A model generated the notes under the pieces. It did no database searches, was not told where the DNA came from, and saw only the letters and a program-made list of their open reading frames with translations. The position numbers were made by a program, and so were the translations under genes. A stretch of DNA of 64,000 nt from Shigella phage ESh26: sequence record ON528736, one strand, 5' to 3'. This document shows, piece after piece, positions 7,600 through 62,818 of this stretch. Numbering within the stretch: position 1 is the first letter of the stretch; each line of letters starts with the position of its first letter.

Positions 7600-7764
7600 T
7601 TACTCTTCTTTTTCTTTAGATTCCTCTTTTTTCTTTTTAGGAATCTGTTCAGGACCTTTATTTACTACAGCGCCTGACGTTGTTCCAGTGGAGATATTTT
7701 CAGGATTACCACCTGAATCTCCAGCTACCATATCTTCTTTGATAAATTCTTTATATGTTTTCAT
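7600..7764 (-). CDS. small lysine-rich protein with CTS-like N-terminus
   Basis: 54-aa ORF below table cutoff: MKTYKEFIKEDMVAGDSGGNPENISTGTTSGAVVNKGPEQIPKKKKEESKEKEE. Confidence 0.4.
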   Translation of the reverse strand: MKTYKEFIKEDMVAGDSGGNPENISTGTTSGAVVNKGPEQIPKKKKEESKEKEE

Positions 7765-12278: not shown

Positions 12279-13127
12279 TTAATCGACTGCTATTGGATGA
12301 ATAGCATTAAACTTATGAAACGCTTCTGATTTTTCTTTGCGTGAAACACACATGCGAAGAACCTTTAATGGCTCGTCTTCTTCACCCAACGATTTTCTCT
12401 TTTCGATATTCGATGTTTTCCAACGAGCTTGCTCTGGAAACTCTCTATTGATTTGCTCAAGAGCTCTATTATGTTTTGAATTACTACGAATTGAACTACA
12501 TCCGCCAGGAGCTTGTGCTTTTCCAGATACAACCAGATATTTGAACAAGGCCAAATGCGGATAACCTTGATTAATTAAATTGAGAAATGCATACATATCT
12601 TCGCATAAATCAATTTTTCCATACCCAATTTGTTCTGTCGTGAGTTTTCCAAGGTCATACCATGTATTCGTGAATCCATATGAATTTTCACGATAATTAC
12701 CCCAAGATGAAGTAATTTTAAAAATTGGTAGACGAGCATGGCCATGATAATACCCACAATCCATGGCATCTTCAACGTATTGAATCAATTCATAGAACTG
12801 TTCACGAGTTAATTGATTAATTTTATCTACACAGCGACGATCATCTTTCTTTCGCATTGAACTCATACGAATAGTAGTATCATCGTCAATCATCCAGATT
12901 CGTTGACCTGCATACATATCAGTAATTGCTTTACGAGTACCAGCAATTCCATTAACATCATCAGGAATAGTTATAATTTTGGCTTTAGACCCGTAAGCGT
13001 CATAATAAGCTTTTTCTTCGTGTTCACGTACTACAATATGAGGTTCATAATCAGTCGGAAACATATCAAGGGCAGAAACTGCCCCTACGCGTTGATAGCT
13101 TGGAATTACGAATTGAATCATTTCCAC
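12279..13127 (-). CDS. glycosyltransferase, GT-A-like; candidate beta-glucosyl-HMC-alpha-glucosyltransferase
   Basis: 282 aa with DxD-type motif RIWMIDDDTT; sits where T4 has 351-aa beta-gt. Confidence 0.55.
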   Translation of the reverse strand: MEMIQFVIPSYQRVGAVSALDMFPTDYEPHIVVREHEEKAYYDAYGSKAKIITIPDDVNGIAGTRKAITDMYAGQRIWMIDDDTTIRMSSMRKKDDRRCVDKINQLTREQFYELIQYVEDAMDCGYYHGHARLPIFKITSSWGNYRENSYGFTNTWYDLGKLTTEQIGYGKIDLCEDMYAFLNLINQGYPHLALFKYLVVSGKAQAPGGCSSIRSNSKHNRALEQINREFPEQARWKTSNIEKRKSLGEEDEPLKVLRMCVSRKEKSEAFHKFNAIHPIAVD

Positions 13128-24761: not shown

Positions 24762-24779
24762 AAAGGGCCGAAGCCCTTT
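24762..24779 (-). terminator. UUCG-loop hairpin after alpha-gt
   Basis: aaagggccgaagcccttt. Confidence 0.55.
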
Positions 24780-25980
24780 ATTTTGTAATAATGTCAAACT
24801 GTTCTTTAAAGCAGAAGCTTGAATCTTGATGCTGATACAAAAATTCATAAGCTTTTTCGCGTTCACGGTCATAAAGAGCTCGGTCAGATGACAGTTCTTT
24901 AATACGCTCAAATGTTGATTCCATGTCATTTTCATCAAACCAAACGATACCGCTATCATGAGAAATTAACGGAGTATTATCAACACGGAATTTTAAATTT
25001 TCGCCAGTAGATTTCCAAAATACCGGAATTGTTCCGCACGCACCAAGCTCGAGATGAGTATATTCTAAAGAACGTTGTAGATATTTTTTGTCCAACTTAC
25101 TCAACTGATAACCAAATCCGGATTTACTCATGCGTTCAAGCATTTCGCTATTTACATAACGGTCGAGAATTTGCGTTGGCAAATTAGGAGCAATTTTAAT
25201 TTGGTCTACTTGATGAAGACGATAATACTCGTATGGAATTCCTTTTTCTTTAATAGGAATGAACGCTGGAGAACGTTCCAGACCTTCCATAATAGTACTT
25301 AGTCCAGCAGGTTTAAGATGTTTTTCGTGAAAATCAAACATCTGATAAAAGCCTTTCCATGTAGTCGTACGACCAATCCAACGGTTGACATTCATGTTAA
25401 TTTCAGAAACATCTTTCCAGTATGTTGATCGAACTTTCGCAATATCCATAGGAGGCTGAAAGTTGTATACGGTCGGTGCTTCTTCAATATCATCAAACAG
25501 AGAAACTGTTTCTGGATACCATTCTTTCATCAGAACTTTATTAAAATCACCATTATCAGAATGACTAAAAATAACATCAGCTCGGCGAACAGTTTCTTCT
25601 AATCCCAAATTTCGACGCAAAGAAAGAGAAGAATGGTCATGTTGATAAACTACAACACGAACCGAAGGTTTAATGTTATCAATAATTTTTTTATAGTTAT
25701 TAATAGTGTCTTCTTCGACTGAAGTAGCAGGAACTGAATTGATAATTAGAATATCACAATCATTTACCAGCTTAAGTGTTTTATCGTATTCTTTTGCCAA
25801 TAAAACCGGAATTGAAAATGATTTATAATCATGCGCGCAATTACGTGTAAATGATTTATCTTTAGCATAAACCAAAGTTACTTCATGACCATTTTTAATA
25901 AACCAATCACGCTGCTCAAGAGAAAATTTAGTTACGCCGCAACCTTCAAGACCTCGAGCCATAAAAATGCATACTTTCAT
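24778..25980 (-). CDS. agt: DNA alpha-glucosyltransferase
   Basis: 400 aa; N-terminus MKVCIFMARGLEGCGVTKFSLEQRDWF as in T4 AGT. Confidence 0.9.
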   Translation of the reverse strand: MKVCIFMARGLEGCGVTKFSLEQRDWFIKNGHEVTLVYAKDKSFTRNCAHDYKSFSIPVLLAKEYDKTLKLVNDCDILIINSVPATSVEEDTINNYKKIIDNIKPSVRVVVYQHDHSSLSLRRNLGLEETVRRADVIFSHSDNGDFNKVLMKEWYPETVSLFDDIEEAPTVYNFQPPMDIAKVRSTYWKDVSEINMNVNRWIGRTTTWKGFYQMFDFHEKHLKPAGLSTIMEGLERSPAFIPIKEKGIPYEYYRLHQVDQIKIAPNLPTQILDRYVNSEMLERMSKSGFGYQLSKLDKKYLQRSLEYTHLELGACGTIPVFWKSTGENLKFRVDNTPLISHDSGIVWFDENDMESTFERIKELSSDRALYDREREKAYEFLYQHQDSSFCFKEQFDIITK

Positions 25981-51390: not shown

Positions 51391-51789
51391 TTATTTGAAT
51401 GATTTGACGTACTGAATAGAACCTTTACTATTCACGAAAGCGATTTTACCATTTTTGTTATACATGGTAGCAGTACGCTGATAGCCATAAGTTTGCTTAC
51501 CAGATTGATAACCAACTAATGCAAAATTATCTTCACCCATTTTATTCTGCTTCGCGCGGATACGTTCATGACCGTGCGCCATAAGAACCTTAGCATCGCC
51601 AGTTGAAATTGATCTACGAGTTTTTTCATCTTCAACTGTACTAACAAAGTCGTCAAATGAATCAAATTTAGCATGAGATTTATTATACAGTTTTCCATCT
51701 ACTGCATAATTATATCCCTGTACATCCATCTCAACTTCTGTACCATCATCCAATACAGCAGTGATTTTTTGACCTTTTTTAAATTTCAA
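51391..51789 (-). CDS. hypothetical protein
   Basis: 132-aa ORF. Confidence 0.5.
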   Translation of the reverse strand: MKFKKGQKITAVLDDGTEVEMDVQGYNYAVDGKLYNKSHAKFDSFDDFVSTVEDEKTRRSISTGDAKVLMAHGHERIRAKQNKMGEDNFALVGYQSGKQTYGYQRTATMYNKNGKIAFVNSKGSIQYVKSFK

Positions 51790-51877
51790 AAGATCAGTAA
51801 AAGATTCAGCAATAATTTGAGAATTAATAGCTGGCTGCTTCAGTGATAAATTCTTGATATGTTTTCATGTGTTTCCT

Positions 51878-56784: not shown

Positions 56785-57348
56785 TTATTTATCTAGTTTA
56801 GTTATTATAGCTTCTGCAGCAGCTTTTAGCTTAGATGCGGTGTTAATACGATTTTTAATTTCAGTATACGCATCGCCAAGAACATCAAGGCTATCAGAAT
56901 AAACACTTACACTATTGCGTTCGCTATTTGAAATAGAACCTTTAGTTTTGCGGTCAAAATCGGTGTACACGTCTTGAAGATCGCGGGCTGCCTTCTTTGC
57001 ATCATCCAATGCATCAAGAGCTTTATTCAAAGCATTAACGTATTTTTTAGTGTCGAACATATTCTTAGAAATTTTAACAGGTGCGCGTTCAGGAGTAGCT
57101 AACACAGATTTAGGAACCTGAGCGCCAGATGCCAATTTCTTAGAAATTTTGAAAAATGCTTTATTGAATTTATTTTCTTGACTCATTGTAAAAGAACTAT
57201 TATCGATGTTGTACATTTCAATAGCTTTAGCTTTCCACTTAAGAAAATCGCCGCGGTCTTTTGGGTCCAATTGGAAGAATACTTTAGTAAGATCTGCTTC
57301 AGATGGTAATTTTGCTGCTTCGGTTAAAAATTCGGCATAGGTTTTCAT
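56785..57348 (-). CDS. internal head protein (IPIII-like)
   Basis: 187 aa; N-terminal MKTYAEFLTEA capsid-targeting-sequence-like; terminator downstream. Confidence 0.65.
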   Translation of the reverse strand: MKTYAEFLTEAAKLPSEADLTKVFFQLDPKDRGDFLKWKAKAIEMYNIDNSSFTMSQENKFNKAFFKISKKLASGAQVPKSVLATPERAPVKISKNMFDTKKYVNALNKALDALDDAKKAARDLQDVYTDFDRKTKGSISNSERNSVSVYSDSLDVLGDAYTEIKNRINTASKLKAAAEAIITKLDK

Positions 57349-57473: not shown

Positions 57474-57947
57474 TTATTTGATTTGTTTAGCAGACCAAAT
57501 GCGGTCTTTAATAATTTTTTGGATGTCTTCAACATACTCAAGAGAGTGAACATGCGGATTATCTTTGAAACTATAAGCACGGGCTAACTTTTGGCCTTCG
57601 GTTTTGATTACTAAAAGCTCTTTAAGGATAGCTTCATATTTAGCGATAATTCCTTTAACGATATTTTTTTCTTGTGCAGCTTTAGGATCTGCTTTAGGAG
57701 CAGGTTTACCCGAAGCCTTTGCAAAAGCAGCGCCAGTAGCAACTAAACTTTTCCAGGCCATACTAACTGCATTTCCCGTAAATCCTTCTGCTTTCATGTC
57801 GCGAGCAAATTGGAATCGTGATTCGTCAGAAGCATCTTTATAGGAATATTTACCCGCTGCAATGGCTGCTTTTGCGACAGCTTGAATTTCGGTGCTAGAT
57901 GCTTCATTTAACACCGCTTCATTTAAAAATTGAGCATATGATTTCAT
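57474..57947 (-). CDS. internal head protein (IPII-like)
   Basis: 157 aa; MKSYAQFLNEA; late promoter TATAAATA at 57988-57995. Confidence 0.65.
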   Translation of the reverse strand: MKSYAQFLNEAVLNEASSTEIQAVAKAAIAAGKYSYKDASDESRFQFARDMKAEGFTGNAVSMAWKSLVATGAAFAKASGKPAPKADPKAAQEKNIVKGIIAKYEAILKELLVIKTEGQKLARAYSFKDNPHVHSLEYVEDIQKIIKDRIWSAKQIK

Positions 57948-57987: not shown

Positions 57988-57995
57988 TATTTATA
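57988..57995 (-). promoter_or_regulatory. late promoter TATAAATA for IPII-like gene
   Basis: Plus-strand tatttata 41 nt upstream of start 57947. Confidence 0.6.
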
Positions 57996-60111: not shown

Positions 60112-60555
60112 TTAACCTTTATCAACAATAGTATGTGTATTGGCATTTACGATTTGCCACCAATCGAAACTATCGCCAAATCGTTTTGATTTATTGTCTT
60201 CAATAATTTGGCGTAATTCATCTTCTGTTTCAGCATACGCAATCAAATCATCATATCCACCACAAGGATAGTAATTATCGCCTGCGAACAAAAGAAAATT
60301 TACTTTAGATGGGTCTACATAATAATGCTCTTTAGGATATTTAGTTCCTCTCCAATCAGTTACTTCAACATAACGATAAGAAAATCCATTTTTACTTTCA
60401 ATCCAACTCCACGCTTCAAAAGGAGTATTAAAAACTTTATCAGGTATTAAATTACCTTCAAAATGAGAAGGATTTGCATAATCCCCAGCATAAACATAGT
60501 ATTCGTTAATACTCACACTCATTCTATTCACCTTTAGAAATTTTATCCATAACAA
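60112..60555 (-). CDS. hypothetical protein
   Basis: 147-aa ORF. Confidence 0.5.
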   Translation of the reverse strand: MLWIKFLKVNRMSVSINEYYVYAGDYANPSHFEGNLIPDKVFNTPFEAWSWIESKNGFSYRYVEVTDWRGTKYPKEHYYVDPSKVNFLLFAGDNYYPCGGYDDLIAYAETEDELRQIIEDNKSKRFGDSFDWWQIVNANTHTIVDKG

Positions 60556-60709
60556 TAGCTATTAAACCAATTAAAAATGCTACTACAAGTGAAAAAACAT
60601 TTTCTGCTGTAGTCAATAATCCGCATATAAATCCAACAAACATTGAAAAACTAAAAGCGGAAGCAGAAATTGCAATAGCAACATTTCGAATTAATTCACA
60701 ACGTTTCAT
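60524..60709 (-). CDS. small membrane protein
   Basis: Start at MKRCELIRN after promoter 60736-60769. Confidence 0.4.
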   Translation of the reverse strand: MKRCELIRNVAIAISASAFSFSMFVGFICGLLTTAENVFSLVVAFLIGLIAIVMDKISKGE

Positions 60710-60735: not shown

Positions 60736-60769
60736 TAATAGTATCACTACCCCATCTAAAAGTAAACTT
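60736..60769 (-). promoter_or_regulatory. early promoter
   Basis: gtaaac 60762-60767, atagta 60738-60743. Confidence 0.5.
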
Positions 60770-61001
60770 ATTTTTTACGAAAAATTGATTTATTTTCTGC
60801 TGCCCATTTTTCAATAACTGCAGCAGGACCAGTAACAACAATTTTATCACCGTAATCTTCTGCGGCGAGTTGACCGAAATTATCTAATGCATCACGAAGA
60901 ACTCCATAAGGCATTTCACCCATTTTATCTTTCTTGCCAGTGTAAATAAACTCAACTTTTACATCAGAAGATTCAGCGATAAACTCTTTGAAAGTTTTCA
61001 T
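60768..61001 (-). CDS. internal-protein-like small protein
   Basis: Start at MKTFKEFIAESSD (CTS-like); promoter 61034-61067. Confidence 0.55.
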   Translation of the reverse strand: MKTFKEFIAESSDVKVEFIYTGKKDKMGEMPYGVLRDALDNFGQLAAEDYGDKIVVTGPAAVIEKWAAENKSIFRKK

Positions 61002-61033
61002 TTTGATTTCCATTTGATTTTGTTTTGATAGGG

Positions 61034-61067
61034 TAATAGTATCACTACTAAAACCCTGTGTAAACAA
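61034..61067 (-). promoter_or_regulatory. early promoter upstream of IP-like gene
   Basis: gtaaac 61060-61065, atagta 61036-61041. Confidence 0.5.
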
Positions 61068-61077
61068 CTTTGTGAAA

Positions 61078-61335
61078 TTATTTTAAATCTTCTAATCGTT
61101 TCTTCATCTTAGAACCATTTTTAGCAATTTCTCCTGCATCGGAGCATAACGCTAAAAGTGCTTTAACTTTAGTTTGGTCTCCTTTAAAAGATGAAGGATC
61201 GACTGCAGCAGCAAGTTCTTTAATACGAGAGAAAAGACGCTCAGCTTCAGCTAAAGCCATTCCAAGCTTTACTTCCATACCGTGAGAAGATTCAGTGATA
61301 GTAGTTTTTGTAGCAAACTCTTTGAAAGTTTTCAT
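61078..61335 (-). CDS. internal-protein-like small protein (ipI position)
   Basis: 85 aa; MKTFKEFATKTT; promoter 61364-61397; adjacent to 57B. Confidence 0.55.
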   Translation of the reverse strand: MKTFKEFATKTTITESSHGMEVKLGMALAEAERLFSRIKELAAAVDPSSFKGDQTKVKALLALCSDAGEIAKNGSKMKKRLEDLK

Positions 61336-61363
61336 TTTATTTTCCTAATTAATTTTGATGAGA

Positions 61364-61397
61364 TAATAGTATCACTACCTCATCAGCATGTAAACAA
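61364..61397 (-). promoter_or_regulatory. early promoter upstream of IP-like gene
   Basis: gtaaac 61390-61395, atagta 61366-61371. Confidence 0.5.
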
Positions 61398-61407
61398 CTT
61401 TGTGAAA

Positions 61408-62104
<697 letters not shown>

Positions 62105-62105
<1 letters not shown>

Positions 62106-62818
62106 TATAGTACCTTTAGTGTATTTTTAATTTTAGAAAAAAGTTCTTCAAGAGAACCATCGTTTGTAATTACTAAATCGCCATCACGAATTGGCAATCC
62201 AGCTTCTGTAATATGTGTATCATTGGATTTTTGACCAGGACGAACTACATGAATTACTGTAGCACCCATCGCCCTAGCCGCATCCATTTCATGATCTTGA
62301 CGAGTATCAGGAACGATATAATAATCATAACCTGAGTTAAATTTATCAAGATAATCTAAAGCAAATAATTTTACCCAATACATGCGGTCGAAGTTATTAA
62401 CAATCAAATCCGTACCTAGGGCTTGCATCAGACGACGGACTGACCATTGATCTTCAATATTATTTATAACGTCAGCAATCTTGTTAAATGCTACGAAATT
62501 AACTGCGTCATCAAAAACAAACACACCTTTAATTGGGCTTTTACTATTAAGATAGCAAAATGCTTGTTCCATAATCGTAATTACTTCTAATTTAGTCAGA
62601 TTTAAATTAGTTTCACGATCATAGTCAATTCCTTCAAACTCTTTACGAGTTAAGCAAGGATAATCAGTGTTTGCTGCAAATACGCCCCATGCATAAGCCA
62701 ATGCATCCTTAATAGGACCAGCAAGTTGATATTTAACTGCAGAATAATTTTTCATGATAAAATCTGCAGTAGTATCTTTTCCACTACGCTTTACACCACT
62801 TAAAAAGATTAGTTTCAT
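62105..62818 (-). CDS. 1: deoxynucleoside monophosphate kinase gp1
   Basis: 237 aa; P-loop GVKRSGKDT. Confidence 0.9.

What the first reader, a model, noticed from the sequence alone, without database searches (positions are those of the whole stretch)
60768..61335. Two small CTS-bearing proteins with their own early promoters beside 57B
Genes starting MKTFKEFIAESSD and MKTFKEFATKTT occupy the position where T4 has ipI, each preceded by a GTTTAC-N18-TATAGT promoter. They are short (77 and 85 aa) and differ from each other after the leader, consistent with duplicated, diverging injected anti-restriction proteins.
Basis: partly seen in the sequence, partly recalled or inferred. Interest (0 to 1): 0.45.

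Follow-up and report, generated by a model that had tools for sequence, protein, structure and literature searches.

The report
Known injected phage proteins Ip5, Ip6
These are two already named T-even phage "internal protein" genes, ip5 and ip6, whose products are thought to be packed into the phage head and injected with the DNA.

Summary
The two ORFs are real. They lie on the minus strand at 61078-61335 (85 aa) and 60768-61001 (77 aa), between 57B (now Acb1) and tRNA.4, where T4 has ipI.

- **Identity.** The 85-aa protein is 100% identical to Ip5 of RB15, T6 and Bas37. The 77-aa protein is T6-type Ip6 (92-94% identical). GenBank and PHROGs already call both internal head or virion proteins.
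- **Promoter.** Each gene has its own T4-early-type promoter, but the -10 box is TACTAT with an upstream TG, not TATAGT. A hairpin spans each -10 box.
- **Leader.** Both leaders fit the capsid targeting sequence. Predicted protease cuts are IAE|S for Ip6 and ITE|S for Ip5; the Ip5 leader resembles that of T4 IPI.
- **Not paralogues.** Only the promoter, ribosome site and leader module is shared. The mature parts have no detectable similarity and different predicted folds.
- **Function.** A 2025 preprint shows that deleting the Bas37 Ip6 orthologue makes that phage sensitive to McrBC. This phage has T6-type glucosylation, which leaves about 25% bare 5hmC, a McrBC substrate. Ip5 has no known target, and ip4-10 showed no reproducible GmrSD inhibition in published tests.

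Verdict: correct reading of a known locus, low novelty.

The parts
61408..61863 (-). Gene 57B, now called Acb1 (anti-CBASS phosphodiesterase). It is the upstream neighbour. Its last codons (DLK-stop) are part of the repeated cassette.
   Evidence: Pfam PF23474 Acb1, E 2.6e-60. Synteny with T4 57B.
61366..61395 (-). ip5 early-type promoter: GTTTAC (61390-61395), N18, TACTAT (61366-61371), with TG two bases upstream of the -10 box.
   Evidence: Apart from two substitutions, it matches the region upstream of T4 ipI.
61356..61385 (-). 13-bp hairpin spanning the -10 box of the ip5 promoter (a PeSL-like stem-loop).
   Evidence: RNA fold -14.8 kcal/mol, z = -5.2, 0 of 200 shuffles fold as well.
61078..61335 (-). 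ip5 coding sequence, 85 aa. Predicted propeptide is residues 1-15 (MKTFKEFATKTTITE, 61291-61335). Predicted mature Ip5* is 70 aa, 7.5 kDa, pI 9.2 (61081-61290).
61353..61423 (-). Copy 1 of a 71-nt direct repeat: the last four codons and stop of the upstream gene, an AT-rich stretch, the -35 box, the hairpin and the -10 box.
   Evidence: the repeat finder family D3, 83% identity, 330-nt spacing. Alignment A3.
61023..61093 (-). Copy 2 of the 71-nt direct repeat, covering the end of ip5 and the ip6 promoter.
61036..61065 (-). ip6 early-type promoter GTTTAC-N18-TACTAT. A hairpin at 61030-61057 keeps pairing through different outer-stem sequences (AGGGT/ACCCT here versus GATGAGG/TCTCATC at ip5).
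   Evidence: Fold -12.9 kcal/mol, z = -3.7.
60768..61001 (-). ip6 coding sequence, 77 aa. Predicted propeptide is residues 1-10 (MKTFKEFIAE, 60972-61001). Predicted mature Ip6* is 67 aa, 7.4 kDa, pI 6.2 (60771-60971).
   Evidence: 94% identical to bas37_0260 and 92% to T6 Ip6. PHROG 8111, E 6e-51. Predicted ferredoxin-like beta-alpha-beta-beta-alpha-beta fold, pLDDT 81.7. It matches the BFVD model of VR7 'Ip6' at TM 0.86. Size and pI.
60738..60767 (-). Third copy of the promoter with its hairpin, driving the tRNA.4-like gene.
   Evidence: Hairpin z = -2.4.
60524..60709 (-). tRNA.4-like 61-aa membrane ORF, the downstream boundary of the variable slot.
   Evidence: PHROG 1692, E 6e-35. Annotated tRNA.4 in PST and T4.

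Best explanation
The region holds ip5 and ip6, two independent cassettes in the hypervariable internal-protein slot between 57B/Acb1 and tRNA.4 of a T6-type Tequatrovirus.

**Cassette structure (shown).** Each cassette has an early-type promoter (GTTTAC-N18-TACTAT with an extended TG). A hairpin spans each -10 box. A ribosome site and a capsid-targeting leader follow, then an unrelated small protein body.

**Life cycle (inferred from T4 IPI-III).** The precursor binds the prohead scaffolding core through its N-terminal leader. The gp21 protease cuts after I-x-E: Ip6 at IAE10|S, Ip5 at ITE15|S. The roughly 7.5-kDa mature proteins stay in the head with the DNA and are injected at infection, so they act before any phage gene is expressed.

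**Ip6 (shown by others on a 94% identical orthologue).** Ip6 protects the incoming genome from McrBC. This phage encodes alpha-gt and beta-alpha-gt but no beta-gt. That is T2/T6-type glucosylation, which leaves about 25% of 5hmC bare, and bare 5hmC is a McrBC substrate.

**Ip5 (inferred, target unknown).** Ip5 is a basic two-helix hairpin. It is most likely another injected first-response inhibitor.

**Evolution (inferred).** The shared promoter/leader module provides the homology through which cassettes are swapped between phages.
For: **Identity and synteny**
- The region is 99.4-99.6% identical in DNA to KFS-EC3 and PST, and 98.4% to T6.
- PST annotates the two genes as ipV and ipVI.
- Ip5 is 100% identical to RB15 Ip5.
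- RB18 annotates its copy as 'similar to T6 Ip6'.
- PHROGs place the two proteins in internal virion and internal head protein families, E about 1e-50.

**Leader**
- Aromatic at position 4, Phe at 7, Ile at 8 and Glu at 10 match the residues mapped for targeting and processing in IPIII (PMC9026906).
- The Ip5 leader parallels the 19-residue IPI leader MKTFKEFTSTTTPVSTITE. Cutting there gives the reported 76-residue IPI*.
- An Ip5 variant has a plain 10-residue leader, MQTYQTFITE|SSHG.

**Promoter and hairpin**
- The promoter motif occurs 8 times against 0.01 expected.
- Hairpin z-scores are -5.2, -3.7 and -2.4.
- The upstream region is nearly identical to that of T4 ipI.
- Repoila 1994 noted such elements at the IP loci, as summarised in PMC2839356.

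**Modularity**
- The slot holds ipI in T4 and ip6 alone in RB18.
- It holds ip5-ip6 in T6, PST, Bas37 and this window.
- It holds ip5-ip7 in T2 and ip5-ip9-ip7-ip8 in RB15.
- It holds four ORFs in VR25 and UPEC07.
- Six clustered substitutions in this ip6 leader all move it toward the ip5 leader sequence (P about 0.002).

**Function**
- The bas37_0260 knockout becomes McrBC-sensitive. Bas37 is KarlGJung, MZ501089.
- Identity to the window Ip6 is 72/77 with 100% positives.
- The window encodes alpha-gt and beta-alpha-gt.
- T2 and T6 have about 25% bare 5hmC, and McrBC cuts 5hmC DNA (PMC13160076).
Against: - Packaging, cleavage and injection of Ip5 and Ip6 were not shown here. I found no virion proteomics for them in the literature I could search.
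- The McrBC result is from a preprint and a different allele. That allele has 3 conservative differences in the mature part and 2 in the leader.
- Mature Ip6 is near-neutral (pI 6.2), unlike the basic T4 IPs.
- Only one of five AlphaFold models of Ip6 was confident.
- No late promoter (TATAAATA) lies directly upstream of either gene. Supply at the time of head assembly is inferred from the identical arrangement at T4 ipI.
- T2 lacks ip6 yet has the same bare 5hmC. Ip6 therefore cannot be the only route past McrBC.
- Ip5 has no phenotype on record. It is 100% identical to the window copy in most of the 177 records in the >=99% identity band, which is unusual for an arms-race protein.
Confidence: 0.8

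Rival explanations
1. One reading: the two genes are tandem duplicates of one ancestral injected anti-restriction gene that have diverged after the leader.
For: - The genes are adjacent and of similar size.
- The first 7 residues are identical.
- A 31-nt ribosome-site and leader repeat is 94% identical, and a 71-nt promoter repeat is 83% identical.
Against: - BLASTP and hhalign align only the leader: 12 columns, probability 31%.
- The predicted folds differ, alpha/beta versus helical hairpin.
- Each family has separate orthologues. Ip6 occurs without Ip5 in RB18, and Ip5 occurs without Ip6 in T2 and RB15.
- A 48%-identical Ip5 relative sits at the other IP locus, beside gene e.
Confidence: 0.04
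2. Ip5 is not an anti-defence factor. It is a structural or DNA-associated internal protein, for example helping charge neutralisation or core assembly as proposed for part of IPIII's role.
For: - It is basic (pI 9.2) and a simple two-helix hairpin.
- It is 100% identical to the window copy in most of the 177 records in the >=99% identity band.
- ip4-10 showed no reproducible GmrSD inhibition.
- The HIDEN-SEQ preprint text mentions no phenotype for bas37_0261.
- IPIII mutants show reduced head assembly (PMC9026906).
Against: - T4 and RB18 lack Ip5 altogether, so it is dispensable for head building.
- All four IPs with assigned functions (Ip1, Ip2, Ip3 and Bas37_0260) are type IV restriction inhibitors.
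- The family exists only in T-even relatives: 2 clusters among 1.84 billion representatives. This is typical of accessory arms-race genes.
Confidence: 0.25
3. The proteins act only as ordinary early cytoplasmic proteins made from their early promoters. The leader is a relic and they are not packaged.
For: - Only early-type promoters lie directly upstream.
- IPIII without its CTS still rescues infection when expressed in the host.
Against: - The leader keeps every residue mapped as needed for targeting and processing.
- The leader is conserved across dozens of otherwise unrelated IP bodies.
- T4 ipI, a packaged protein by classical evidence, has the same upstream region.
- An inhibitor of a nuclease that cuts incoming DNA gains most from being present at time zero.
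Confidence: 0.07

Closest known systems
[not shown]
   Same: 100% amino-acid identity over 85 residues. It holds the same position directly after 57B.
   Different: Nothing detectable. Its function is still unassigned.
Ip6 of T6, and Bas37_0260 of phage KarlGJung, reported as a McrBC inhibitor (bioRxiv 10.1101/2025.11.20.689424)
   Same: 92-94% identity, same length, same position just before tRNA.4, and the same promoter cassette.
   Different: The leader here reads MKTFKEFIAE|SS rather than MKTYQEFIAE|TA. This comes from six clustered nucleotide changes that match the neighbouring ip5 leader. One further mature-part change is H32Y.
T4 IPI* (GmrSD-CT596 inhibitor), and T4 Ip2 and Ip3 (inhibitors of other GmrSD variants)
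   Same: Same locus (IPI), the same promoter, hairpin and ribosome-site region, the same kind of leader, and a similar size. The logic is the same: an injected inhibitor specific for one type IV restriction enzyme.
   Different: There is no sequence similarity in the mature parts. The reported target of Ip6 is McrBC, which recognises bare 5hmC or 5mC, not GmrSD, which recognises glucosyl-5hmC. Mature Ip6 is near-neutral rather than basic.
T4 Arn, a DNA-mimic inhibitor of McrBC
   Same: The same reported target enzyme (PMC12707154).
   Different: Arn is described as a DNA mimic. I know of no evidence that it is packaged. Ip6 carries a CTS, has zero net charge (11 acidic and 11 basic residues), and matched no PDB chain by sequence.
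PeSL promoter-stem-loop shuffling cassettes of RB49 and phi1 (Arbiol et al. 2010, PMC2839356)
   Same: An early promoter plus a stem-loop in each intergenic space. These are repeated flanks around small accessory ORFs and plausible recombination sites.
   Different: According to that paper, the T-even IP elements are analogues, not homologues. They are built on T4-type early promoters and have weaker, AT-richer stems.

Membership tests
T4-type internal proteins (CTS-bearing, gp21-processed) | N-terminal capsid targeting sequence MKT(F/Y)xEF, with an aromatic residue at position 4 and Phe at position 7. | tested here: met
   Both proteins start MKTFKEF. The residue roles come from PMC9026906. 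The motif occurs 5 times in the window against 0 in shuffles.
T4-type internal proteins (CTS-bearing, gp21-processed) | An (L/I)-x-E cleavage motif closing a propeptide of 10-19 residues. | tested here: met
   Ip6 has IAE at residues 8-10. Ip5 has ITE at residues 13-15, like ITE at 17-19 of T4 IPI. An Ip5 variant has a 10-residue leader ending in ITE.
T4-type internal proteins (CTS-bearing, gp21-processed) | Encoded in one of the two IP loci (57B-tRNA.4, or e-denV). | tested here: met
   Synteny with T4, PST, T6 and Bas37.
T4-type internal proteins (CTS-bearing, gp21-processed) | Physically present in the virion in processed form, and injected with the DNA. | not testable with these tools
   This needs virion mass spectrometry or N-terminal sequencing. 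I found no such data for Ip5 or Ip6.
Ip5 family | Full-length sequence identity to the published Ip5. | tested here: met
   85/85 identical to RB15 CAA84462, T6 and Bas37_0261.
Ip6 / Bas37_0260 family (reported McrBC inhibitor) | Orthology: high identity over the full length at the same genomic position. | tested here: met
   72/77 identical with 100% positives. bas37_0260 lies between ip5 and tRNA.4. The model matches the BFVD Ip6 model at TM 0.86.
Ip6 / Bas37_0260 family (reported McrBC inhibitor) | Loss of the gene makes the phage sensitive to McrBC. | not testable with these tools
   Reported for Bas37 only.
IPI*/Ip2/Ip3 GmrSD inhibitors | Sequence or fold relationship of the mature protein to IPI*, Ip2 or Ip3. 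| tested here: not met
   [not shown]
IPI*/Ip2/Ip3 GmrSD inhibitors | Inhibition of a GmrSD enzyme. | not testable with these tools
   The literature is negative so far. ip4-10 gave no reproducible inhibition. T2 and T6 are blocked by GmrSD-ECOR17 and by leaky GmrSD-ECOR21.
Arn-type DNA mimics | A strongly acidic surface that mimics DNA. | tested here: not met
   Mature Ip6 has 11 D+E against 11 K+R, pI 6.2. Ip5 has pI 9.2.
Promoter-stem-loop shuffling cassettes (PeSL-like) | A repeated intergenic module containing an early promoter plus a stable stem-loop, flanking accessory ORFs. | tested here: met
   Three modules are present. The repeat is 71 nt at 83% identity. Hairpin z-scores are -5.2, -3.7 and -2.4. 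The outer stems differ in sequence but keep pairing.

The most novel reading that the evidence does not exclude
Ip5 is an injected inhibitor of a first-response host defence that has not yet been identified.

- ip4-10 showed no reproducible inhibition of the GmrSD variants tested (PMC12373910), and no McrBC phenotype has been reported for Ip5.
- It is a T-even-only orphan, a basic two-helix hairpin that is 100% identical to the window copy in most of the 177 records in the >=99% identity band.
- It sits directly after Acb1.

A smaller point concerns the ip6 leader here. It is a chimera carrying ip5-type leader sequence. This catches cassette exchange through the leader in the act.
Probability: 0.35. 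Interest if true: 0.45.

Novelty: already known. Interest (0 to 1): 0.15.

Why it matters
Internal proteins are a phage's time-zero counter-defence. They are in the cell before any phage gene is read.

- The slot beside Acb1 behaves as a swap-in rack for such inhibitors.
- This window shows the T6-type load-out, Ip5 plus Ip6.
- The reported McrBC target of Ip6 fits the incomplete glucosylation encoded elsewhere in the same window.

For this scan the value is confirmation and annotation, not discovery. The only open question of note is what Ip5 targets. That question is directly testable with existing knockout and host-panel methods.

Tried and rejected
- **Pfam, NCBIfam and PADLOC scans of both proteins.** Nothing significant.
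- **PDB sequence search.** No hits for Ip6, and only E>0.7 noise for Ip5.
- **Foldseek search of the Ip5 model against PDB.** Only designed helical hairpins and the LSD1 tower, E>0.4.
- **Exhaustive HMMER search with mature Ip5 against 1.84 billion representatives.** Only its own cluster and the e-locus relative, so there is no bacterial homologue to hint at a target.
- **Word-indexed homologue searches.** Only shallow, T-even-only families: 11 hits for Ip6 and 5 for Ip5.
- **Profile-profile comparison of Ip5 and Ip6.** Leader only, so the paralogue idea was rejected.
- **Repoila et al. 1994.** The paper is not in the held library. Its content is cited only through later papers and the GenBank record.
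- **Virion proteomics for Ip5 or Ip6.** None found; the fPS-90 paper has none.
- **Late promoter.** No TATAAATA lies directly upstream of either gene.

Full report
**1. Observation**

All genes here read on the minus strand. The ORF MKTFKEFATKTT... is 61078-61335 (85 aa). The ORF MKTFKEFIAESSD... is 60768-61001 (77 aa from the ATG).

Upstream lie gene 1 (62105-62818), 57A (61863-62105) and 57B (61408-61863). Downstream lie a 61-aa membrane ORF (60524-60709), then tRNA.3- and tRNA.2-like ORFs and the tRNA cluster. T4 has the same order with ipI in this slot.

The promoter detail needs correcting. Each gene is preceded by GTTTAC-N18-TACTAT. The -10 region reads GTGATACTAT, an extended TG-n-TACTAT box. 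The generic sigma-70 scan reads the same site as TTTACA-N17-TACTAT with a TG. TATAGT is not present at these sites.

A third copy of the promoter precedes the tRNA.4-like ORF. The motif occurs 8 times in the window, always on the minus strand, against 0.01 expected. The leader motif MKT[FY]xEF occurs 5 times in the six-frame translation, against none in 200 shuffles.

**2. Identity**

- The 1.4-kb region is 99.6% identical to Escherichia virus KFS-EC3, 99.4% to Yersinia phage PST and 98.4% to T6. In all, 229 phage records carry most of it.
- PST annotates the two genes as ipV and ipVI (internal head and virion proteins). The T6 RefSeq record calls them internal head and internal virion protein.
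- The 77-aa protein is 92% identical to the T6 copy. RB18 annotates its own as 'similar to T6 Ip6', and VR20/VR25 call theirs ip6.
- PHROGs place the proteins in families 8111 ('internal virion protein') and 3499 ('internal head protein'), at E about 1e-50.
- 57B matches Pfam Acb1, the anti-CBASS protein.

**3. Anatomy of the cassettes**

Three consecutive intergenic spaces carry the same module (alignment A3). The elements come in this order:
- the last codons of the upstream gene;
- a stop codon;
- an AT-rich stretch;
- GTTTAC;
- a hairpin that spans the -10 box;
- a ribosome site;
- ATG.

The copies after 57B and after ip5 form a 71-nt repeat at 83% identity. It even includes the shared C-terminal codons D-L-K-stop. 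The ribosome-site and leader stretch forms a second repeat of 31 nt at 94% identity.

The hairpins are more stable than shuffled sequence, with z = -5.2, -3.7 and -2.4. Their outer stems differ in sequence but keep pairing: GATGAGG/TCTCATC at ip5 versus AGGGT/ACCCT at ip6. This points to selection on the structure.

T4 carries a nearly identical 57B-ipI spacer. Its ipI-tRNA.4 spacer is a hybrid of the window's 'ip6-type' promoter and the tRNA.4 ribosome site. The promoter module is therefore the junction at which cassettes are joined.

This matches the account in Arbiol et al. 2010. They state that Repoila et al. 1994 saw PeSL-like promoter and stem-loop elements at the two variable IP loci, and that these may drive IP shuffling (PMC2839356).

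Contents of the slot in different phages:

| Phage | Genes between 57B and tRNA.4 |
|---|---|
| T4 | ipI |
| RB18 | ip6 |
| T6, PST, Bas37, this window | ip5-ip6 |
| T2 | ip5 and an Ip7-like gene |
| RB15 | ip5-ip9-ip7-ip8 |
| VR25, UPEC07 (Gaprivervirus) | four ORFs |

A small sign of ongoing exchange is visible here. Across 742 aligned columns, the window differs from T6 at 19 positions. Six of these fall within 24 columns of the ip6 leader (simulated P about 0.002). All six change the T6-type leader (MKTYQEFIAE|TA) to the sequence of the neighbouring ip5 leader (MKTFKEF...E|SS). PST shares this chimeric leader.

**4. Leader and processing**

A published review gives the rules. IP propeptides are 10-19 residues long, and gp21 cuts after L/I-x-E. 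In IPIII, residues 4 and 7 matter for targeting and residues 8 and 10 for processing (PMC9026906).

- **Ip6.** MKTFKEFIAE|S satisfies all four positions.
- **Ip5.** It lacks Glu at position 10 but has ITE at 13-15. This parallels T4 IPI, whose leader MKTFKEFTSTTTPVSTITE ends at residue 19. Cutting there gives the reported 76-residue IPI*.
- **Ip5 variant.** One homologue has a simple 10-residue leader, MQTYQTFITE|SSHG, which supports ITE|S as the cleavage site.

The predicted mature products are Ip6* (67 aa, 7.4 kDa, pI 6.2) and Ip5* (70 aa, 7.5 kDa, pI 9.2). Cleavage and packaging are inferred, not shown.

**5. Not diverged duplicates**

- BLASTP aligns only residues 1-12.
- hhalign of the two family alignments aligns 12 leader columns at probability 31%.
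- AlphaFold predicts a beta-alpha-beta-beta-alpha-beta fold for Ip6. The best model has pLDDT 81.7, but the other four are poor. It agrees with an independent BFVD model of VR7 Ip6 at TM 0.86.
- AlphaFold predicts a two-helix hairpin for Ip5, pLDDT 71.
- Each gene occurs without the other in some phages.
- A 48%-identical relative of Ip5 lies at the other IP locus, beside lysozyme gene e.

What is duplicated is the regulatory and leader module, not the protein.

**6. Function**

*Earlier work on T4*
- T4 Ip1, Ip2 and Ip3 each block one GmrSD-type enzyme, with no cross-protection (PMC12373910).
- In the same study ip4-10 were tested against GmrSD variants, and no interaction was reproducible.
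- T2 and T6 plaqued on the GmrSD-ECOR17 strain only when T4 Ip3 was supplied. Leaky GmrSD-ECOR21 inhibited T2 and T6.

*The McrBC result*
- The HIDEN-SEQ preprint (bioRxiv 10.1101/2025.11.20.689424) studied bas37_0260, one of two genes at the ipI locus of Bas37. The gene is needed on K-12 BW25113 but not on a strain lacking McrA, McrBC and Mrr.
- Its deletion makes the phage specifically McrBC-sensitive.
- The protein shares only the N-terminal signal with IPI-III.
- Bas37 is phage KarlGJung, MZ501089.
- In that record bas37_0260 is the 77-aa gene between ip5 (bas37_0261) and tRNA.4.
- It is 72/77 identical to the window protein, with every difference conservative.

*Why McrBC makes sense for this phage*
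- The window encodes alpha-glucosyltransferase (24778-25980) and beta-alpha-glucosyltransferase (12279-13127).
- This is the T2/T6 system, which leaves about 25% of 5hmC unglucosylated.
- McrBC cuts 5hmC DNA (PMC13160076).

*Ip5*
Ip5 has no assigned function. It has no relatives outside T-even phages, with only two 50%-identity clusters in 1.84 billion representatives.

**7. Comparison and novelty**

Ip5 and Ip6 were named in 1994. They are annotated in public records, and Ip6 now has a reported target. Their workings are those of T4 IPI, with a different body and target.

Ip6 shares its reported target with T4 Arn (PMC12707154). It is neither acidic nor similar to any PDB chain.

The finding is a correct reading of a known locus, so interest is low.

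**8. Limits**

- I could not read Repoila 1994.
- The McrBC evidence is a preprint on an orthologue.
- No proteomic proof of packaging was found.

Noticed in passing
window 51391-51868 (-): The ip4 gene looks broken. It is called Ip4 in RB51 and wV7 and matches PHROG 3155 and Pfam DUF7412. It carries a 4-nt CAGC duplication immediately after its leader, which gives a 14-aa product (MKTYQEFITEAASY*) followed by an out-of-frame 132-codon body. No record among 50,697 phage records shows the insertion at full coverage. It is either a recent pseudogene or a sequencing error.
   Followed up: partly
window 56785-57348 (-) and 57474-57947 (-): Two more ORFs have CTS-like leaders: MKTYAEFLTE|A (187 aa) and MKSYAQFLNE|A (157 aa). 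They lie just past the tRNA cluster, outside the two classical IP loci. Both match PHROG 2280 ('unknown function'), and the 187-aa ORF is 'hypothetical protein' in every record I inspected among 164 hits. Each is bounded by GC-hairpin and T-run terminators. Each is preceded by a late-promoter-like box, TATAAATA at 57988-57995 and AATAAATA before the second. They may be unrecognised late-expressed internal proteins. In Bas37 they are bas37_0243 and bas37_0244.
   Followed up: partly
window 7600-7764 (-): A 54-aa ORF next to the primase gene, at about the T4 61.1 position, begins MKTYKEFIKE. This is a CTS-like leader with an I-x-E site. The rest of the protein is low-complexity and acidic/lysine-rich. 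It matches PHROG 1823 (unknown function).
   Followed up: partly
window 12279-13127 (-) and 24778-25980 (-): The window encodes beta-alpha-glucosyltransferase and alpha-glucosyltransferase. This indicates T2/T6-type DNA modification rather than T4-type.
   Followed up: yes
window 60972-61001 (-); alignment A4 columns 451-474: The ip6 leader here, and in PST, is a chimera. Six clustered substitutions relative to T6 and Bas37 all match the adjacent ip5 leader. This suggests a short recombination or gene-conversion tract between neighbouring cassettes.
   Followed up: partly
L006 (phage slur03) 2001-2282; L007 (phage UPEC07) 1502-1744: Ip5-family members occur at the other IP locus in many Tequatroviruses, between lysozyme gene e and denV, at 48% identity. 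In a Gaprivervirus a member with a plain 10-residue leader sits next to an Ip6-like gene. The same protein bodies therefore move between both IP loci and between genera.
   Followed up: partly
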